Below are positions 6,670 to 21,383 of a DNA stretch of 64,000 nt, piece after piece (position 1 is the first letter of the stretch; every line of letters begins with the position of its first letter). The notes beneath the pieces are model-generated. The model saw only the letters and a list, made by a program, of their open reading frames with translations, was not told the origin of the DNA and did no database searches. A program made the position numbers and the translations under genes. The DNA comes from a bacterium (lineage in GTDB: Bacteria; DUMJ01), in the NCBI GenBank assembly GCA_049970495.1, contig JBMFMV010000001.1, positions 2,604-66,603 on the forward strand. Direction: 5' to 3'.

Positions 6670-8886
6670 TTATCCCTCTGAAATAATTCTATCCACCACT
6701 AACTGGCGAAATTCTGGGGAGAGACTACTAAAGTATGCACTAAAGCCAGTAACTCTAACTATCAAATCGGGGTATTTGCTTGGATCTTTATGTGCCTCTA
6801 GGATTTTATCCTTATCTATAATGTTTATATTAACCATAGTTCCGCCTAGATCAAAGTGTACCTTTATAAGATTAGCAATATTTTCTACTGCTTCCTTTTC
6901 GTCTTCAATAAGGGGATCAAGTTCGATCTGCATAGGGGCAGTATTGCCGTACCCAGGCTGAACACTTGCAATAGCTATGGCCATCGCAGTAGCTGCACCA
7001 TCATTCCTAAAACCCGGATCGGGATTAGCACCGTGAGATATAGGGTCACCAGCATACCTTCCATTAGGGGTAGCCCCTAAATTTCTACCCATAGGGATAG
7101 TATTTGCCCAGGAGAATAATCCTGGGATCATATTATACCCGTTAGGGGTAGGCTTCTCTTTAACCATCTTGGTAAACGTCTTAGAGATTCTAACAGCATA
7201 CTCATCGGAAATAGAACTACCGCTACCATATCTAGGGGTATTCCTCATTATCAATCTGATTCTTTCGCCATTTGGTCCAGCCCAGTTATTATCAAGATAG
7301 TACATCAGTTCCTGCCATGTTATCCTTCCCTCTTTTTCAACCCTCTCTTCAATCGCTCCAAAAGAATCAGCAACTGTAGCCAAACCTGCACCATCTACGC
7401 ACATATTATAAAATTCTACCCCTCCATGTGAGGCATCTAGACCTTTCTCTATGGGACCATGAGAACATAGGTCTAAGACTAGCTCCGGGAAAACTCTATG
7501 CATATACTCTAGGTGAAAATCCAACCCTTTAGCTATAGTATCTATGGCTATCTTCAAATGTTTGGTAAATCTATTCCACAACTCTTCAGTACTTGGATTA
7601 CATCCAGACTCCTGCATCATCTCACGGAGAGCAACATCAAATATTGTAGCAAAATTGATCTTTACACAATCCATTATTGTGTATTCTCTTCCCGGTATGC
7701 CATACCAATGACATCCTGCATATGCCCTCTCTCTAGCTATCTCTAAAGGATATCCATTTCTTGCAAACCCATTTACTACGCTATCCGCACCTAGAAACTT
7801 GGGAATTCCCATTTTATCATCAAGTAAAATCTCTACCCCCCTGTATAAAAGACCTCTATCTAATCCATCCCCAACACAGACACCTATATTAGTAGGGATC
7901 CTTAGTCTATGCGCTGCCTCTAAGATTAGATAAGAAAGAGGATTTGTTACGTCTCTACCCTCTCTATCATAACCCCCAAGTTGTATATATGCAGTATCTC
8001 TCAGTAAAAGACATACTATATGGAATATTGCCTCTTCATCGGTTAAGATTCCGGCATCCCTATCCCTCTTATAAAAAGGATAGAGTATTACATCGAGCCT
8101 TCCTAGAGAACCGCTACCATTATACATCCTAGCAGTTATTAAATACCAGAGTATCCATTGACATGCCTCTCTGAAAGTCCTAGGTGGTTCATTTACTAGT
8201 CTTTCATTCATCTTTGCTATCTCTAAAAGGTTCTTCTTTAATTCTGGATCTTCCTCATCCTGAGCCATAGACTTTGCCGTATTAGCAGTCCTATAAATCC
8301 AATCCTGAATCCCTAAAACTACAGATTCTAAACCATCATAAAATTCAGAGGATTCTGGATTATTCATCTTTCTATAGTATCTGATCTTATCTAAAATGCC
8401 TTTCCATCCTAATCTAAGTCCTATCTCCATATCCTGACAGAAATGCTGTGCTGCGCCAATACCTGTAACTAGCTGATATAATTTCTGCTCCCTATGAAGG
8501 TAGGAATAATCAAAATCTGGATTCCAATGAGGATTTCTATAGGACATAAAGTTGACCATATAAGCCCCAGCAAGAGAACTTATTGGGTCTATATATACAG
8601 GGTGCACCTCTAAAAGTCTCCTAAAGTTTTCACCACAAGATTTAGGCCCAAAGAATCCTCCACTCGGATGATTGGGAATAAATTTAAAGCTTTTTAATAG
8701 AACATCTGTTATGGGCATTCCAGAAGAACTAATCGTTTTTACTATTTCTCTTTCTTCCTGAGGAGGGAGGATCAGTCCCCAGTCATCATGGTCCATAAAA
8801 CCAACAATTTCCTGCTTTTCTCTTGTATGCTCCAATTTCTTAGCACGAAGCAGACCTATTCTCTCTTGATAAGTTAAAATAGCCAT
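6670..8886 (-). CDS. Glycyl radical enzyme of the PFL2/glycerol-dehydratase-like family, substrate unknown
   Basis: 738 aa. The C-terminal glycyl-radical motif VRVTGFSAYF is present. A single candidate active-site Cys lies in GCHWYGIPG, with no PFL-type CC pair. A GRE activase gene lies immediately downstream. Confidence 0.8.
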   Translation of the reverse strand: MAILTYQERIGLLRAKKLEHTREKQEIVGFMDHDDWGLILPPQEEREIVKTISSSGMPITDVLLKSFKFIPNHPSGGFFGPKSCGENFRRLLEVHPVYIDPISSLAGAYMVNFMSYRNPHWNPDFDYSYLHREQKLYQLVTGIGAAQHFCQDMEIGLRLGWKGILDKIRYYRKMNNPESSEFYDGLESVVLGIQDWIYRTANTAKSMAQDEEDPELKKNLLEIAKMNERLVNEPPRTFREACQWILWYLITARMYNGSGSLGRLDVILYPFYKRDRDAGILTDEEAIFHIVCLLLRDTAYIQLGGYDREGRDVTNPLSYLILEAAHRLRIPTNIGVCVGDGLDRGLLYRGVEILLDDKMGIPKFLGADSVVNGFARNGYPLEIARERAYAGCHWYGIPGREYTIMDCVKINFATIFDVALREMMQESGCNPSTEELWNRFTKHLKIAIDTIAKGLDFHLEYMHRVFPELVLDLCSHGPIEKGLDASHGGVEFYNMCVDGAGLATVADSFGAIEERVEKEGRITWQELMYYLDNNWAGPNGERIRLIMRNTPRYGSGSSISDEYAVRISKTFTKMVKEKPTPNGYNMIPGLFSWANTIPMGRNLGATPNGRYAGDPISHGANPDPGFRNDGAATAMAIAIASVQPGYGNTAPMQIELDPLIEDEKEAVENIANLIKVHFDLGGTMVNINIIDKDKILEAHKDPSKYPDLIVRVTGFSAYFSSLSPEFRQLVVDRIISEG

Positions 8887-8897
8887 ATCTATTCCTC

Positions 8898-9800
8898 CTA
8901 ATAGATTTTTTCTCTATCGATATATCTTCCCATCAAATCTTTAATCTTCTCTATATCCTCCTTTTTTGGAGGCTCTAGCTCTAAAATTCCTCTTCTATTA
9001 TTGAATAACCATGGCTTACTTAAGCCTAATTTGTGATAGGGTAAGAGCTTTACTCTTCTTACAGATTTAAGTTTGGCTATAAAATTGGCAACTGCTACTA
9101 TATTCTCTCTAGAATCATTATATCCAGGTATAATAGGGACCCTTATCTCTATCCATTTCTCTGCTCTATCTAGTCTGTAAAGATTTTCTAGTATTATCTC
9201 ATTTGGAACCCCTGTGAGCTTTTTATGTTCTTCTGAGTTCATATGTTTAATGTCGTATAAAAAGATGTCAACAAAAGGTAACAGGTCTTTAAGCTTATCC
9301 CAAGAGACAAAACCAGACGTGTCTAACGCTGTAGAGATACCATTCTCTTTACAAGACTTTAGTAGATCTAGACAAAAATCGAATTGAAAAGTTGGTTCTC
9401 CTCCGGAAAGTGTAACTCCTCCGGATTGTTTGTAAAAAGGGATATCTTTGATAACTTCATCTAAGACCTCCTCTAAATCATAAATTTTACCCTGTAATAC
9501 AATGGCTCTAGCCGGACAGGCATCTACACACTTAAAACAAAATCGACAGAACTTTTCATCATACTTCTTCCCCTTTAAATTATCATTCTGCAAAGCTCCA
9601 GTAGGACAGACTAGGACACAGGAATTACATCCTATACACTTGTGCCTATAGAACGCCAATTCAATCTTAGGGCTTATAGATTCAGGATTATGACACCAGA
9701 GACACCTTAAAGGGCAACCTTTAAAGAAGACAGTAGTTCTAATTCCTGGTCCATCGTGTAGAGAAAATCTCTGTATATCAAATATAATACCACTACTCAT
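8898..9800 (-). CDS. Glycyl-radical enzyme activating protein (radical SAM enzyme with an extra ferredoxin-like domain)
   Basis: CxxxCxxC radical-SAM motif in GCPLRCLWCHNPE. Two additional 4Fe-4S motifs are present: CIGCNSCVLVCP and CRFCFKCVDACP. The GGE SAM-binding segment is GGEPTFQ. Confidence 0.85.
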   Translation of the reverse strand: MSSGIIFDIQRFSLHDGPGIRTTVFFKGCPLRCLWCHNPESISPKIELAFYRHKCIGCNSCVLVCPTGALQNDNLKGKKYDEKFCRFCFKCVDACPARAIVLQGKIYDLEEVLDEVIKDIPFYKQSGGVTLSGGEPTFQFDFCLDLLKSCKENGISTALDTSGFVSWDKLKDLLPFVDIFLYDIKHMNSEEHKKLTGVPNEIILENLYRLDRAEKWIEIRVPIIPGYNDSRENIVAVANFIAKLKSVRRVKLLPYHKLGLSKPWLFNNRRGILELEPPKKEDIEKIKDLMGRYIDREKIY

Positions 9801-12207: not shown

Positions 12208-12294
12208 TGGCGGAGGGGGAGGGATTCGAACCCCCGGGCCTCATCGGCCAGCGATTTTCAAGACCGCCGCAATAAACCACTCTGCCACCCCTCC
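12208..12294 (-). tRNA. tRNA-Ser (anticodon UGA)
   Basis: The reverse complement folds by hand as a cloverleaf. The acceptor stem is GGAGGGG/CCCCTCC. The anticodon loop is CTTGAAA. A long variable arm is present, and the 3' CCA is encoded. Confidence 0.8.
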
Positions 12295-12295
12295 A

Positions 12296-12637
12296 TTAAC
12301 AGGTAAGATGTAATGCGCATACTACTTTACTTTTATCCTTAGTTTGATTATATATCTCTACCGCCCTACCAGTCAACTCTGCTATAAGCTGTATACTGTT
12401 TTCTCTTAGATACTTCTCTACTTCAGGTAGGATTCTTAACATACCGTAAGCACCGGTTCCAACTATGAATACCTTAGGTTTTGCCTCGACCACTTCTAGT
12501 ATGTCAGAGATATGCAATTCGTGTCCTTCCTCTCTCCACCAATCATTCTCTACCCTATCCGGAAAGATAATAATATCAGAAAAATAAGAGATGCCATCTA
12601 TAATAATCTTACCGAATTCGTAATGTTCTATATTCAT
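12296..12637 (-). CDS. Mth938-like domain protein (DUF498-like), function unknown
   Basis: 113 aa. The VFIVGTGAYG and LRILPE motifs are typical of the MTH938 fold family. Confidence 0.55.
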   Translation of the reverse strand: MNIEHYEFGKIIIDGISYFSDIIIFPDRVENDWWREEGHELHISDILEVVEAKPKVFIVGTGAYGMLRILPEVEKYLRENSIQLIAELTGRAVEIYNQTKDKSKVVCALHLTC

Positions 12638-13647
12638 CTCAGACCACTACTCCAAGTTCCCCTTTCTAAAAATTCTCTACCTACAGAGGGATTTACCACA
12701 CAAGAGATAGGAATCCTTCTCCTTAAATATCCATGGCACATTGTATTACACTGTCTACAGCTATTTATAAGGCCAAATCTTCCATCTTGGATCTTTTTAG
12801 GCAAAAATGGATCGGCTAAAAGGGCTCTACCTATTGCAACAAAATCTGCATATCCATTCTTTATCCTATCTTCTGCCAAATCAGGTATATGCATCTTTCC
12901 TACCATAATTACAGGGATATCTACCTGTCTCTTTACCTCTTTAGCTAAGGCTCCATAGTCATATGAACCAGGGGCGGTGCTAGGAGATATATCTAAGATA
13001 TCCAAACCTCCCTTCTTAAGCTCTTTAGCAAATAGAATAGTGTCTTCTAAGGTATAACCCCCTTCTCTTGTTTCTATCGGGGTATGACGGTAGAGTATCA
13101 AAAACCTTTCATTAGCTATAGACTTTAACCCTTTAATAACATCTAAAGAAAATTTCATTCTTCTATAGAGATCTCCGCCATACTCATCATTACGTCTGTT
13201 AAAGATAGGAGAAAAGAACTGATTCATTATAAAACCGTGCGCTCCATGAGGCTCTACCCCATCGAATCCTGCATCCAAACAGACTTTTCCTGCGTATATA
13301 AAATCATCTATAAAAGACCTTATCTCATCTATAGGTATATCTGTTACATCCCTACGTGGTTGAGGATTACTTTTTATAGTTAGTTGGACAAAGACGTTTG
13401 ATCCATTCCTATGGATACTATCAGCAAGGAGCTTTAATCTGACTTGGAAGCACTTATCATGGAATAGATGAGTTGGAACCCCTTCTATTATTATACTTCC
13501 AACTCCTCCTAATGCCCTCTTTGAATAGTAAGCTATAGACTGATCTGTAACTATCCCAAAATTGGTAGCCATAGGAGGCATTACTATTCTATTTTTAAAT
13601 CTTAAGCCCTTAACAAAAATAGGAGAAAAGAGATATTCGTAACTCAT
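12634..13647 (-). CDS. NADH:flavin oxidoreductase of the Old Yellow Enzyme family
   Basis: 337 aa with the OYE TIM-barrel pattern: PPMATNF, HGAHGF, and a C-terminal RALLADP. Confidence 0.8.
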   Translation of the reverse strand: MSYEYLFSPIFVKGLRFKNRIVMPPMATNFGIVTDQSIAYYSKRALGGVGSIIIEGVPTHLFHDKCFQVRLKLLADSIHRNGSNVFVQLTIKSNPQPRRDVTDIPIDEIRSFIDDFIYAGKVCLDAGFDGVEPHGAHGFIMNQFFSPIFNRRNDEYGGDLYRRMKFSLDVIKGLKSIANERFLILYRHTPIETREGGYTLEDTILFAKELKKGGLDILDISPSTAPGSYDYGALAKEVKRQVDIPVIMVGKMHIPDLAEDRIKNGYADFVAIGRALLADPFLPKKIQDGRFGLINSCRQCNTMCHGYLRRRIPISCVVNPSVGREFLERGTWSSGLR

Positions 13648-13657
13648 CTAAGTCACC

Positions 13658-14615
13658 TCATACCCTAAGCTTTTCGATCTCCTCTTCATTTAAAGCTATT
13701 GACTCTAGCATATAACTCTTACCAGAATTTTCTAGAACTTTCACTTTAACACTCCTATCCTTTGGAGCATCACTATATCTAACTAAAACCCTAACTGCGA
13801 TATCTAAAGAATCGCCTTCTACTATTATACCAGTAGGACCAGGATAATCAATAGTAAAGAACATGTACTTCCATATCCTAGAATCTCTTAAGACCTTATT
13901 TTCTCTCTCATTACGACCTATTATAAACCAACAACCATATACATAGAAGTGTCTTCCAACTCTTAAAAGCTCAAAATATTCCCTTGTTGGCCTTCCCTTT
14001 ATACCGATAAGAAATCTTAATCTCTTAGAGAATTGTATATCTGTAAGGAGACAACCCCCAGCTGGTGTTTTATAATTATCTATACCAAATTTCTTGGCAA
14101 GTTCTATCTGCCTATTCCTTTTTCTTCCTGATATATCATAAAGCCATTCTCTCTTTATCCAGCCCTGTTGTTCAGGTATAGTAGGTGGAAGCAAGGCTCC
14201 TGAGAGGGGTCTAACCACTAGTCCTTCAGCACCTGCAGACTTTTCAACCTCCTTTAATGCCCATTTAGTCTGAGACATAGGTCTTTCGCCTAAAACTTCT
14301 CCTGTTATTATAAAATTAGCATCATATTCTTTTAATAATTCTTTAGCCTTTCTAATCATAAAGGCATGACAATCTATACATGGATTCATATTTTTACCAT
14401 ACCCATGTGGGGGTGATATTAATAGGTCAATAAAATCTTCAGTTATATCGACAATCTCTACAGGTACCCCAAAGACCTTAACTCCATACTCTACATCGGG
14501 AGAAAAAAAAGGGAGTAACAAATCCTATAGGGATCACCTCAATGTTATGAGACATCATTATCTTTATAGCCAAGGTACTATCAAGTCCGCCAGAATATAA
14601 AGCTAAAGCCCTCAC
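13658..14615 (-). pseudogene. PP-loop ATPase (ThiI-like tRNA sulfurtransferase family without THUMP). As given, it is frameshifted at a T8 homopolymer on the coding strand (A8 on the plus strand at 14503-14510).
   Basis: A GTG start at 14615 overlaps the TGA of the upstream DivIVA gene (GTGA). From there the frame reads (M)RALALYSGGLDSTLAIKIMMSHNIEVIPIGFVTPFFF and then stops. The long ORF 13658-14521 continues in the adjacent frame with ITGEVLGERPMSQTKWA and PCIDCH. Removing one T from the tract fuses both parts into about 319 aa. Confidence 0.6.
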
Positions 14616-15049
14616 TCCTCAAGAAGCCTCCTATAGGCCTCAAGTATACTTATAAACTTTGCTCTAAACTCACTGTAGAGACTCTTCAGCCTCTCTATTT
14701 CTATCTCTATCTTTGCCTTCTCTTCCTCTGCATTCCTTATAATCTCCCTAGCCGAATTTTGTGCAGAACTTATTATAATCCTCCTCTCTTCTTCAGCGGT
14801 CTTTCTCAATTCATTCATAGCTTGCTGAGTAGATAGTAGAGTCTCTTTTAAGAGAGATTCTATATTCTTATAGTATTCTAGTTGTCCTTCTAGATCTTTC
14901 AACCTGGTTTCTAGGGTCTTATTCTCTTCTATAAGAGTAGCCCATTCATCGGCAAGTTGAGATAGATACTCCTTGACTTCGTCTATGTCATATCCACGGA
15001 GCCTTTTAGAAAACTCCTTATTTTGAATATCTAGAGGAACTCTATACAT
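14612..15049 (-). CDS. divIVA: DivIVA domain cell-division protein
   Basis: The N-terminal PLDIQNKEFSKRLRGYDIDEVKEYL segment is the canonical DivIVA lipid-binding domain. It is followed by a coiled coil. Confidence 0.8.
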   Translation of the reverse strand: MYRVPLDIQNKEFSKRLRGYDIDEVKEYLSQLADEWATLIEENKTLETRLKDLEGQLEYYKNIESLLKETLLSTQQAMNELRKTAEEERRIIISSAQNSAREIIRNAEEEKAKIEIEIERLKSLYSEFRAKFISILEAYRRLLEE

Positions 15050-15050
15050 A

Positions 15051-15614
15051 TTATCTCCTACTTCCCGGTTTTACTATAGGTATGTTATCTTTACAAAGAG
15101 GACATTCCTCAGGCGGATAAGTCGATAGTGATATATAGACTAATGACCTAACAGGTATCCCCTCCACCTCACTAACATTTCCTCTATTTACTATGCTAGA
15201 GATACCAATAACGTCACCACCACTAGCCAAAACCAAATCCTTCAATTCCTTTACTGTCCCTGCAGTGGTAATAACGTCTTCTACTATAAGAACCCTTTCA
15301 TCTTTATCTATGGAAAAACCTCTCCTAAAGGTCAAAATACCTGATTCTCTCTCAGCAAATATACTTCTAACCCCTAAAACCCTAGCGGTCTCATAGGCTA
15401 CAGTAATACCCCCTATAGCAGGACCAACTACAAGATTTATCTCTTTATCTTTAAAAAGTTCGGCAATCCTTTGGGCAAGAAAAGAAGTATCCTCTGGATA
15501 CTGTAAGACTTTAGCACATTGTATATAGGTATCACTGTGAAGTCCAGAAGAGAGCAAAAAATGCCCCTTCATTATTGCTCCTCTTCTATAAAGTAAGTCC
15601 AATATTTCATCCAT
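15051..15614 (-). CDS. pyrE: Orotate phosphoribosyltransferase
   Basis: 187 aa. The PRPP-binding motif VLIVEDVITTAGT is present. Confidence 0.85.
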   Translation of the reverse strand: MDEILDLLYRRGAIMKGHFLLSSGLHSDTYIQCAKVLQYPEDTSFLAQRIAELFKDKEINLVVGPAIGGITVAYETARVLGVRSIFAERESGILTFRRGFSIDKDERVLIVEDVITTAGTVKELKDLVLASGGDVIGISSIVNRGNVSEVEGIPVRSLVYISLSTYPPEECPLCKDNIPIVKPGSRR

Positions 15615-18198: not shown

Positions 18199-18269
18199 GT
18201 AACAGTTACAGAATGTCGACCTCTTGCATATCTTTTGAGTATAAGGTATAATTTTTACTGTCGAAGTGT

Positions 18270-18344
18270 GGGGCTGTGGCGCAGAGGGAGCGCGCTTCCT
18301 TGGCATGGAAGAGGTCACGGGTTCAAGTCCCGTCAGCTCCACCA
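18270..18344 (+). tRNA. tRNA-Ala (anticodon GGC)
   Basis: Manual cloverleaf fold. The acceptor stem is GGGGCTG/CAGCTCC. The anticodon loop is TTGGCAT. The T-loop is TTCAAGT. The 3' CCA is encoded. Confidence 0.8.
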
Positions 18345-18503
18345 TATTTTTTTATTCACAAATCTATTGACAGATACCTCTTTTATCCCTTATCATTTTA
18401 AGCTAATTAATATTTATTTAGAGTCTTTAGACATTAGACTCGGAAAATCCTAGGCTTAGATCAAGTCTAGGTATATTATACTCTAATTTGGAGGTGTTAT
18501 AAG

Positions 18504-20886: not shown

Positions 20887-21383
20887 TTATTCGAGGTTTT
20901 GCCCATAAGTTAGGAGATGATATAAATACTGACTATATAATCTCTGGAAAGTATAAATTTAAGACACTAGATATGAAAGAATTGGCTCAACATATATTTG
21001 AAGATATAGAACCTGATTTTATCAAGAAGATAAAACCAGGAGATATTATAGTTGCAGGAAAGAATTTTGGCTGTGGCTCTAGTAGAGAACAGGCACCTTT
21101 AGTAATTAAAAACGCTGGATTAAGTGCTGTAGTGGCAATCTCATTTGCAAGGATATTCTATAGAAATGCTATAAATAACGGATTACCTCTAGTAGAATGC
21201 GATACATCAAACATAGAGGATGGAGATGAGCTAGAGATAAATTTAGAGGAAGGAGTTGTTAAGGACATAACCAAGGGTTTTCAGATTAAGATAAATCCTC
21301 TTCCTCCATTTATGATGAAGCTATTACAGGATGGTGGACTAGTAGAACACTTTAAAAAATACGGAGGTTTCTCAATTGAGTAA
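20883..21383 (+). CDS. leuD: 3-isopropylmalate dehydratase small subunit
   Basis: 166 aa aconitase swivel domain. Its start overlaps the leuC stop (ATGA). Confidence 0.8.

What the first reader, a model, noticed from the sequence alone, without database searches (positions are those of the whole stretch)
13658..14615. PP-loop ATPase gene frameshifted at an 8-nt homopolymer and translationally coupled to divIVA
Upstream of the annotated ORF the other frame encodes a textbook PP-loop (ALALYSGGLDST). It starts at a GTG that overlaps the divIVA stop (GTGA at 14612-14615). The two frames meet exactly at an A8/T8 run (14503-14510). Deleting one base yields a continuous ThiI-like protein of about 319 aa without the THUMP domain. 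The cause is either a homopolymer sequencing error, a genuine slippage or phase-variable site, or a recent pseudogenisation. Coupling of a putative tRNA-thiolation enzyme to divIVA is itself unusual.
Basis: seen in the sequence. Interest (0 to 1): 0.5.

Follow-up and report, generated by a model that had tools for sequence, protein, structure and literature searches.

The report
One extra T breaks a thiI-like gene
A normally intact tRNA-sulfur-transfer gene of a known family (ThiI-like PP-loop plus NFACT-R domain) carries one extra T in this assembly, in a T-run created by conserved Pro-Phe-Phe-Ser codons. This is an ordinary assembly error or very recent mutation, not a programmed frameshift.

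Summary
On the minus strand a GTG at 14615 overlaps the divIVA stop (GTGA). It opens a 45-codon frame with the PP-loop SGGLDS. A T8 run lies at 14503-14510. The annotated 287-aa ORF (13658-14521) continues in another frame. Removing one T gives a 318-aa protein.

That protein has a ThiI-type PP-loop domain and a C-terminal NFACT-R_2 (DUF814) domain. This is the "ThiI+DUF814" family described in 2014 as a predicted alternative tRNA 4-thiouridine synthase.

All 164 related public loci that cover the gene's 5' end read straight through this site. One of them is a 99.7%-identical contig from the same species. The conserved Pro-Phe-Phe motif produces in-frame T6-T8 runs in about half of the relatives examined.

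dN/dS against an 88% orthologue is 0.10 on both sides of the run, the same as neighbouring genes. No stimulatory RNA structure is present.

The extra T is therefore specific to this assembly. I estimate a consensus error at about 0.5 and a very recent strain mutation at about 0.4; a real T8 could be partly bypassed by polymerase slippage. Programmed recoding is effectively excluded.

The divIVA overlap is conserved only in the immediate clade, and 4-nt overlaps are common in this window. Interest is low.

The parts
13658..14615 (-). Whole thiI-like (PP-loop + NFACT-R_2) gene as it would read with T7: 318 codons plus stop. As assembled (T8) it is split into two frames.
14478..14615 (-). Upstream frame: GTG start and 45 codons containing beta1, the PP-loop, alpha1 and beta2. 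It ends at a stop 15 codons after the start of the run (8 codons past its end).
   Evidence: secondary structure of the orthologue model
14577..14594 (-). PP-loop ATP-binding motif S8-G-G-L-D-S13.
   Evidence: S8, G10, L11, D12 and S13 are invariant in 68 sequences
14503..14510 (-). T8 run (A8 on the plus strand), the site of the one-base excess. The expected in-frame state is CCC TTT TTT TCT (Pro-Phe-Phe-Ser, T7).
13658..14521 (-). Downstream frame: the deposited 287-aa ORF with an artificial TTG start. It lacks the PP-loop.
14198..14612 (-). ThiI-type PP-loop domain (residues 2-139 of the mended protein).
   Evidence: PF02568, 30.7 bits against a cutoff of 20.5; fold matches to ThiI, MnmA, LarE and TtuA
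14369..14380 (-). CxxC (C79, C82) in NPCIDCH, invariant.
14108..14128 (-). GRKRNRQ, the family-specific GRxRxxQ motif (G163, R164, R166, Q169 invariant).
   Evidence: motif named in PMC4075521
14051..14053 (-). Third invariant cysteine (C188, in PAGGCLLT).
13670..13957 (-). NFACT-R_2 (DUF814-type) putative RNA-binding domain, residues 220-315.
   Evidence: PF18297, 52.7 bits against a cutoff of 26.9
14612..14615 (-). GTGA: the start of the thiI-like gene overlaps the divIVA stop. The close orthologues L001-L003 have ATGA.
14612..15049 (-). divIVA (145 aa), the upstream gene of the same operon.

Best explanation
The gene is an ordinary, normally intact member of the ThiI+DUF814 (PP-loop + NFACT-R_2) family. 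It is a predicted ATP-dependent tRNA uridine sulfurtransferase.

Inferred mechanism of the enzyme:
- The PP-loop adenylates the target uridine.
- The CxxC+C cysteines deliver sulfur, probably through an Fe-S cluster or a persulfide.
- The NFACT-R domain replaces THUMP as the tRNA-binding module.

The conserved Thr-Pro-Phe-Phe-Ser codons form a T7 run in this AT-rich genome. The assembled sequence has one T too many (T8). I take this most likely to be a homopolymer-length error in the metagenome-assembled consensus, so the organism makes the full 318-aa enzyme. It is not a recoding signal.

Shown: the extra base, the family assignment, intactness in all relatives, and the lack of decay. Inferred: that the extra base is an artefact rather than a real allele, and the enzyme's activity.
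For: - The mended protein matches 318-aa relatives end to end at 72-88% identity. Only the deposited copy from this same MAG is truncated.
- An independent assembly of the same species is in frame at the site. It is ENA ERZ3623746 NODE_19755 (L084), 99.7% identical over 1573 nt, and it reads 221 codons to the contig end.
- 164 of 164 related loci that include the 5' end give one continuous tblastn match from residue 5 or earlier.
- Among 89 loci where the motif could be located, Pro-Phe-Phe is present in 81. The in-frame T-run is 6 or more bases in 50 of them, and one (L019) has an in-frame T8. The run is therefore a by-product of conserved codons. F36 is invariant in 68 sequences.
- dN/dS against the 88% orthologue is 0.099 overall: 0.078 upstream and 0.103 downstream of the run. 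Neighbouring genes give 0.04-0.10. There are no further stops or indels.
- The run is the longest homopolymer in the window, and it is the only run where a +/-1 change mends a single broken gene. The two large merges flagged elsewhere are separate neighbouring genes; four small ones were not followed up.
- The window and L084 each differ by one step from CCC-T7, the state that encodes the conserved PFF. Two independent assemblies disagree exactly here although only 3 other differences occur in 1573 nt. This marks the site as error-prone or hypermutable.
Against: - No reads are available, so a genuine T8 allele cannot be excluded.
- The rest of the window shows no other homopolymer frameshift: 13 runs of 7 and 53 A/T runs of 6 are clean. 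The assembly is therefore not generally indel-ridden.
- Short-read consensus errors at 8-mers are uncommon (own knowledge).
- L084 has only 1.6x coverage and carries Leu at an invariant Phe, so it may itself contain an error. That would be a substitution, though, and would not change the frame.
Confidence: 0.5

Rival explanations
1. The T8 is real: a very recent, strain-specific +1 slippage mutation at a replication hot spot. It truncates the enzyme's PP-loop from the rest of the protein.

The allele would be a strong hypomorph rather than a null. RNA polymerase slippage (loss of one U) or a +1 ribosomal slip of tRNA-Phe on UUU_U would each restore exactly ..PFFSPD.. in a minority of products.
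For: - Homopolymers are replication-slippage hot spots, and this is the longest in the window.
- No other assembly-type indels were seen.
- The same-species contig shows that strains differ here.
- E. coli RNA polymerase restored about 10% of expression by one-base deletion at poly(T8) in a reporter. It needs 7 or more T and prefers poly(T) (PMC6260861).
- ThiI-type genes are dispensable in model bacteria (own knowledge).
Against: - Strong purifying selection on the gene across the clade (dN/dS 0.10) argues that loss is costly.
- The conspecific contig and all 164 relatives are in frame.
- There is no secondary decay, so the event would have to be extremely recent.
Confidence: 0.4
2. The run is a programmed recoding or phase-variable site. 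Out-of-frame T8 would be the maintained state, and expression of the sulfurtransferase would be tuned by transcriptional slippage, +1 frameshifting or reversible run-length switching.
For: - A T8 run is long enough for measurable bacterial RNA polymerase slippage.
- The two same-species assemblies differ at this very site.
Against: - 0 of 164 related loci are out of frame.
- The closest orthologues interrupt the run (CCT TTC TTC TCT).
- The conspecific contig is in frame, and its difference is C4T6, not a pure length variant.
- No Shine-Dalgarno-like element lies next to the run (read directly from the sequence), and the next 0-frame codon (UUC) is not a stop.
- There is no RNA structure beyond chance (z = -0.34).
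- The gene class is not typical of contingency loci (own knowledge).
Confidence: 0.05
3. It is an old pseudogene or a functional split gene: a 45-aa PP-loop peptide plus a 287-aa remainder working in trans.
For: The deposited annotation treats the 287-aa ORF as a normal gene.
Against: - dN/dS is 0.08-0.10 on both sides of the run, with no further lesions.
- In the orthologue model (pLDDT 93), residues 1-33 form beta1, the PP-loop, alpha1 and beta2 of the core sheet. The 287-aa product therefore lacks the ATP site and two core strands.
- No relative is split.
- The TTG 'start' lies inside the conserved coding sequence.
Confidence: 0.03

Closest known systems
ThiI+DUF814 (ThiI-like PP-loop fused to NFACT-R; Pfam PF02568 + PF18297), described by Burroughs & Aravind 2014 (PMC4075521)
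   Same: - Same two-domain architecture and similar length.
- SGGxDS PP-loop, CxxC plus an internal Cys, and the GRxRxxQ loop motif.
- Two conserved arginines in the DUF814 part.
- No THUMP and no rhodanese domain.
- Wide bacterial and some archaeal distribution.
   Different: - This copy is interrupted by one extra T as assembled.
- No TusA gene is adjacent; here the gene sits in a pyrE-divIVA-thiI-like-OYE-DUF498 operon.
- The family's activity (s4U8 formation) is a prediction. I found no experimental test of it.
Canonical ThiI/TtuI tRNA U8 sulfurtransferase (B. anthracis 2c5s, T. maritima 4kr6; TIGR00342)
   Same: - PP-loop fold. These are the top structural matches with the highest identity, 20-21%.
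- ThiI Pfam domain hit.
- The CXXC+C pattern resembles the [4Fe-4S]-dependent archaeal TtuI subclass (PMC9825150).
   Different: - No N-terminal ferredoxin-like or THUMP domains and no rhodanese domain.
- TIGR00342 scores 26.9 bits against a cutoff of 264.5.
- A larger loop lies between the CxxC and the third Cys.
Indels at A/T homopolymers bypassed by transcriptional slippage (e.g. Citrobacter rodentium tssM, PMC4256274; E. coli reporter series, PMC6260861)
   Same: - The frameshift lies in a T run of 7 or more bases.
- A one-base deletion in the mRNA would restore the frame.
- About 10% rescue was measured for poly(T8) with E. coli RNA polymerase.
   Different: - There is no evidence here that T8 exists in the cell, or that rescue occurs.
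- The out-of-frame state is not conserved in any relative.

Membership tests
ThiI+DUF814 (PP-loop + NFACT-R_2) family | ThiI-type PP-loop domain with the SGGxDS motif | tested here: met
   PF02568 scores 30.7 bits against a cutoff of 20.5 over residues 2-139. S8, G10, L11, D12 and S13 are invariant.
ThiI+DUF814 (PP-loop + NFACT-R_2) family | C-terminal NFACT-R_2/DUF814 domain with two conserved arginines, one before the first strand and one before the first helix | tested here: met
   PF18297 scores 52.7 bits against a cutoff of 26.9 over residues 220-315. R221 is invariant and sits at the start of strand 221-225. R234 is at least 90% conserved and lies before helix 236-244.
ThiI+DUF814 (PP-loop + NFACT-R_2) family | CxxC plus an internal Cys, and the GRxRxxQ loop motif | tested here: met
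   C79, C82, C188, G163, R164, R166 and Q169 are invariant in 68 sequences. The motifs are as listed in PMC4075521.
ThiI+DUF814 (PP-loop + NFACT-R_2) family | Absence of THUMP and rhodanese domains | tested here: met
   No such Pfam or NCBIfam hits. The protein is 318 aa, fully covered by the two domains plus the loop.
ThiI+DUF814 (PP-loop + NFACT-R_2) family | Uninterrupted reading frame | tested here: not met
   As assembled, one extra T splits the gene. A 99.7%-identical contig is in frame.
ThiI+DUF814 (PP-loop + NFACT-R_2) family | Neighbourhood association with TusA (contextual, not obligatory) | tested here: not met
   The neighbours are pyrE, divIVA, OYE-type flavoenzyme, DUF498 and tRNA-Ser.
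ThiI+DUF814 (PP-loop + NFACT-R_2) family | tRNA 4-thiouridine (or other thiolation) activity | not testable with these tools
   Predicted only (PMC4075521). Two literature searches found no experimental paper.
Canonical ThiI/TtuI (TIGR00342) | Full-length equivalog score; N-terminal ferredoxin-like and THUMP domains | tested here: not met
   26.9 bits against a cutoff of 264.5. Only model positions 175-313 are matched.
Programmed frameshift / programmed transcriptional slippage gene | Out-of-frame arrangement conserved among orthologues | tested here: not met
   0 of 164 loci are out of frame. The closest orthologues lack the run. The conspecific contig is in frame.
Programmed frameshift / programmed transcriptional slippage gene | Slippery run plus stimulatory element (nearby SD, slow codon or stop in the A site, or RNA structure) | tested here: not met
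   A T8 run is present, but there is no adjacent SD-like element and the next codon, UUC, is not a stop (sequence). The fold z-score is -0.34.
Phase-variable (contingency) locus | Run-length polymorphism within the population | tested here: inconclusive
   Only one other conspecific sequence exists. It differs at the site as C4T6 against C3T8, at 1.6x coverage. No reads are available.
[4Fe-4S]-dependent PP-loop sulfurtransferases (TtuA, archaeal TtuI, some LarE) | Three-cysteine CXXC+C motif in a PP-loop fold; cluster binding | tested here: inconclusive
   The motif is present and invariant. The fold matches LarE-[4Fe-4S] 8cnz, TtuA 5mkp and ThiI. Cluster binding is not testable here, and the cysteine geometry in the model was not measured.

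The most novel reading that the evidence does not exclude
The T8 allele is real and is maintained in this strain as a leaky allele. Polymerase slippage at U8, or a +1 slip of tRNA-Phe, would yield a low, condition-dependent amount of the full sulfurtransferase. tRNA thiolation would then be set by slippage frequency, and the same tract would revert easily (T8 to T7) in the population.
Probability: 0.05. Interest if true: 0.35.

Novelty: already known. Interest (0 to 1): 0.12.

Why it matters
It matters mainly for annotation. The deposited 287-aa 'ThiI' protein (MGC8970581.1) is a truncated call that lacks the ATP-binding loop. The correct product is 318 aa, or else the locus should be flagged as frameshifted.

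The case also shows how a conserved Pro-Phe-Phe motif in AT-rich genomes creates a built-in T6-T8 tract that is prone to both sequencing and replication slippage.

The gene family itself is a predicted THUMP-less route to 4-thiouridine. It remains uncharacterised experimentally and has no solved structure. That is the more interesting open point, but it is not new.

Tried and rejected
1. Exact-pattern scans for the tract with variable length (GTTACTCCC N6-10 CTCCCGATGTAGAG) found nothing in genome contigs or metagenome contigs.

They returned only relatives at 80% identity or less and no further same-species DNA.

3. Exact look-ups found no further contigs covering the tract. I tried the 287-aa ORF, the 45-aa ORF, pyrE and the OYE-type protein. 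Only the DivIVA and DUF498 look-ups produced same-species contigs: L084, L085 and L086. Of these, only L084 spans the run.

4. The other large flagged 'fusable' homopolymer sites, 8906-8911 and 21354-21359, are junctions of separate complete genes (activase/glycyl-radical enzyme; LeuD/dehydrogenase). They are not frameshifts.

5. An RNA structure near the run as a frameshift stimulator was rejected (z = -0.34).

6. A functional link between DivIVA and the enzyme was rejected as unsupported. The adjacency occurs only in L001-L005 and L084, and in 0 of 78 distant loci. This test used phmmer with a single DivIVA query, so very divergent DivIVA genes could be missed.

7. A sequence search of the PDB gave only a marginal LarE-like hit (E 0.028). 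Fold search gave generic PP-loop matches.

Full report
**1. The observation**

Reading the minus strand and listing ORFs confirms every sequence statement.
- divIVA occupies 14612-15049 (145 aa; Pfam DivIVA E 3.4e-37).
- Its TGA overlaps a GTG at 14613-14615, giving GTGA.
- That GTG opens a 45-codon ORF (14478-14615) beginning MRALALYSGGLDST.
- A run of eight T lies at 14503-14510.
- The 287-aa ORF 13658-14521 continues in another frame.
- Deleting one T yields a 318-aa protein.

The 287-aa ORF is exactly the deposited protein MGC8970581.1, 'MAG: tRNA 4-thiouridine(8) synthase ThiI [bacterium]', from a 109,424-bp contig. The window therefore comes from a metagenome-assembled genome.

**2. What the gene is**

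The mended protein hits two Pfam domains:
- ThiI (PF02568), residues 2-139, 30.7 bits against a cutoff of 20.5.
- NFACT-R_2 (PF18297), residues 220-315, 52.7 bits against a cutoff of 26.9.

It fails the canonical ThiI equivalog (TIGR00342, 26.9 bits against 264.5). It has no THUMP or rhodanese domain.

A database search returned thousands of relatives. Nearly all of the listed ones carry both Pfam domains and are about 316-330 aa long.

Invariant residues in a 68-sequence alignment include:
- S8, G10, L11, D12, S13 (the PP-loop).
- C79 and C82 (CxxC).
- G163, R164, R166, Q169 (GRxRxxQ).
- C188, and R221.

These are the features Burroughs & Aravind (2014, PMC4075521) listed for the 'ThiI+DUF814' family. 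They predicted it to be an alternative 4-thiouridine synthase in lineages lacking THUMP-ThiI.

An AlphaFold model of the 88% orthologue is confident (pLDDT 93, pTM 0.87). Its best PDB fold matches are PP-loop sulfurtransferases: MnmA, ThiI 2c5s/4kr6 at 20-21% identity, LarE-[4Fe-4S] and TtuA. By sequence there is no close solved structure.

The CXXC+C pattern resembles that of [4Fe-4S]-dependent archaeal TtuI (PMC9825150). An Fe-S-dependent mechanism here is an inference. I found no experimental study of the family.

**3. Is the frameshift a feature of the gene or of this sequence?**

The closest full-length relatives (72-88% identity) are 316-318 aa. They align through ..TPFFSPD.. without a gap.

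Contigs encoding the 88% orthologue have the same gene order: pyrE, divIVA, thiI-like, OYE-type flavoenzyme, DUF498, MFS. They have the same 4-nt start/stop overlap (ATGA). At the site they read CCT TTC TTC TCT, with no homopolymer.

The most telling result comes from an exact look-up of the window's DivIVA protein. It found an independent ENA assembly, ERZ3623746 NODE_19755 (1573 nt, coverage 1.6; L084).
- It is 99.7% identical to window 13950-15523, with three SNPs elsewhere.
- At the run it reads ACTCCC-CTTTTTT-CTCCC (C4T6, 10 nt), where the window has C3T8 (11 nt).
- There the gene is in frame for 221 codons, up to the contig end.

Across all fetched loci, 164 of 164 that include the 5' end give a single continuous match starting at residue 5 or earlier.

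Among 89 loci where I could locate the motif, 81 encode Pro-Phe-Phe. The in-frame T-run is 6 nt in 28 loci, 7 nt in 21 and 8 nt in one. F36 is invariant.

The tract is therefore a by-product of conserved codons in AT-rich genomes (this window is 37.8% G+C). It is not a conserved slippage signal. The window and L084 are each one step from CCC-T7, the state encoding the conserved PFF. The Leu36 in L084 sits at an invariant Phe and rests on 1.6x coverage, so it may itself be an error.

**4. Age and selection**

Nei-Gojobori dN/dS against the 88% orthologue:

| Region or gene | dN/dS |
|---|---|
| Mended gene, whole | 0.099 |
| 37 codons upstream of the run | 0.078 |
| Downstream of the run | 0.103 |
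| divIVA | 0.056 |
| pyrE | 0.078 |
| OYE-type flavoenzyme | 0.097 |
| DUF498 | 0.036 |

There are no other stops or indels. An old pseudogene is excluded. The extra T is either not real or very recent.

**5. Is the assembly generally error-prone?**

The window has 109 homopolymer runs (A/T of 6 or more, G/C of 5 or more). This is the only one of length 8.
- Simulating +/-1 at every run flagged seven sites. Only this one mends a single broken gene.
- The two other large flagged merges join separate, complete neighbouring genes.
- The four small merges (77-193 codons) were not followed up.

Coding density is 94.7% and there are no unexplained gaps. A systematic long-read-type indel problem is therefore not evident. 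An isolated error at the longest homopolymer remains plausible.

**6. Recoding**

Restoring the frame needs loss of one U in the mRNA, or a +1 ribosomal slip (tRNA-Phe from UUU to UUU, then UCU CCC GAU). Either gives exactly ..PFFSPD..
- No Shine-Dalgarno-like element adjoins the run.
- The next 0-frame codon is an ordinary UUC.
- The local RNA fold is no better than shuffles (z = -0.34).

Together with the comparative data, this excludes programmed recoding for practical purposes.

If T8 is real, some unprogrammed rescue is expected. E. coli RNA polymerase needs 7 or more T, prefers poly(T), and restored about 10% of expression by one-base deletion at poly(T8) (PMC6260861). That figure comes from E. 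coli reporters, not from this organism.

The 287-aa product alone cannot work. In the model, residues 1-33 form strand 1, the PP-loop, helix 1 and strand 2 of the core.

**7. divIVA coupling**

The overlap is conserved in the close clade (L001-L005, L084). DivIVA was not detected next to the gene in any of 78 more distant loci. That test used a single-sequence phmmer query, so very divergent DivIVA genes could be missed.

Eight gene junctions in this window have the same 4-nt overlap. No terminator-like site separates the minus-strand genes from pyrE to DUF498; the only one predicted on that strand lies inside pyrE. This is a lineage-specific operon arrangement with no evident functional meaning.

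**8. Verdict**

The finding is real as sequence and ordinary as biology. A known-family gene carries a one-base homopolymer excess unique to this assembly.

| Explanation | My estimate |
|---|---|
| Consensus error | about 0.5 |
| Genuine very recent frameshift, probably leaky | about 0.4 |
| Programmed or phase-variable site | about 0.05 |
| Old pseudogene or functional split gene | about 0.03 |

Only read-level data can separate the first two. The practical outcome is an annotation correction: a 318-aa product, or a frameshift flag.

Noticed in passing
L084:1008-1020 (ENA ERZ3623746 NODE_19755), corresponding to window 14503-14513: The same-species contig encodes Leu at Phe36, a position invariant in 68 family members (CCC CTT TTT instead of CCC TTT TTT). 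Coverage is only 1.6x. It could be a base-call error at the C/T boundary or a real variant that shortens the run to T6.
   Followed up: partly
window 12208-12294 (-): tRNA-Ser(TGA) lies directly downstream of the DUF498 gene on the same strand. No terminator-like site was detected between the genes from pyrE to here, so it may be co-transcribed with the pyrE-divIVA-thiI-like-OYE-DUF498 genes. A second tRNA, tRNA-Ala(GGC), lies at 18270-18344 (+); a 72-codon ORF at 18235-18453 overlapping it is probably spurious.
   Followed up: no
window 12634-13647 (-) versus L001:5926-6981: The OYE-type flavoenzyme is 337 aa here, from an ATG 10 nt after the thiI-like stop. In the 88% orthologue contigs it is called as 351 aa, overlapping the end of the thiI-like gene by 32 nt. 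The true start is uncertain.
   Followed up: no
window 6670-9800 (-): A 738-aa ORF sits next to a 300-aa ORF. Their counterparts on the orthologous contig L001 are a PFL-like glycyl-radical enzyme and its radical-SAM activase. The two ORFs are separated by only 11 nt. They looked 'fusable' at a T6 run but are two complete genes.
   Followed up: partly
L035:2320-3378 and L055:5011-6060 (Atribacterota MAGs): Immediately downstream of the thiI-like/NFACT-R gene there is a second, weakly related ORF (phmmer E about 1e-7). This suggests a tandem PP-loop paralogue in Atribacterota.
   Followed up: no
window 12634, 20883, 33071, 44298, 46170, 48603, 49280, 49750 (gene junctions): Eight same-strand gene pairs overlap by exactly 4 nt (ATGA/GTGA type). 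This style of junction is routine in this genome.
   Followed up: yes
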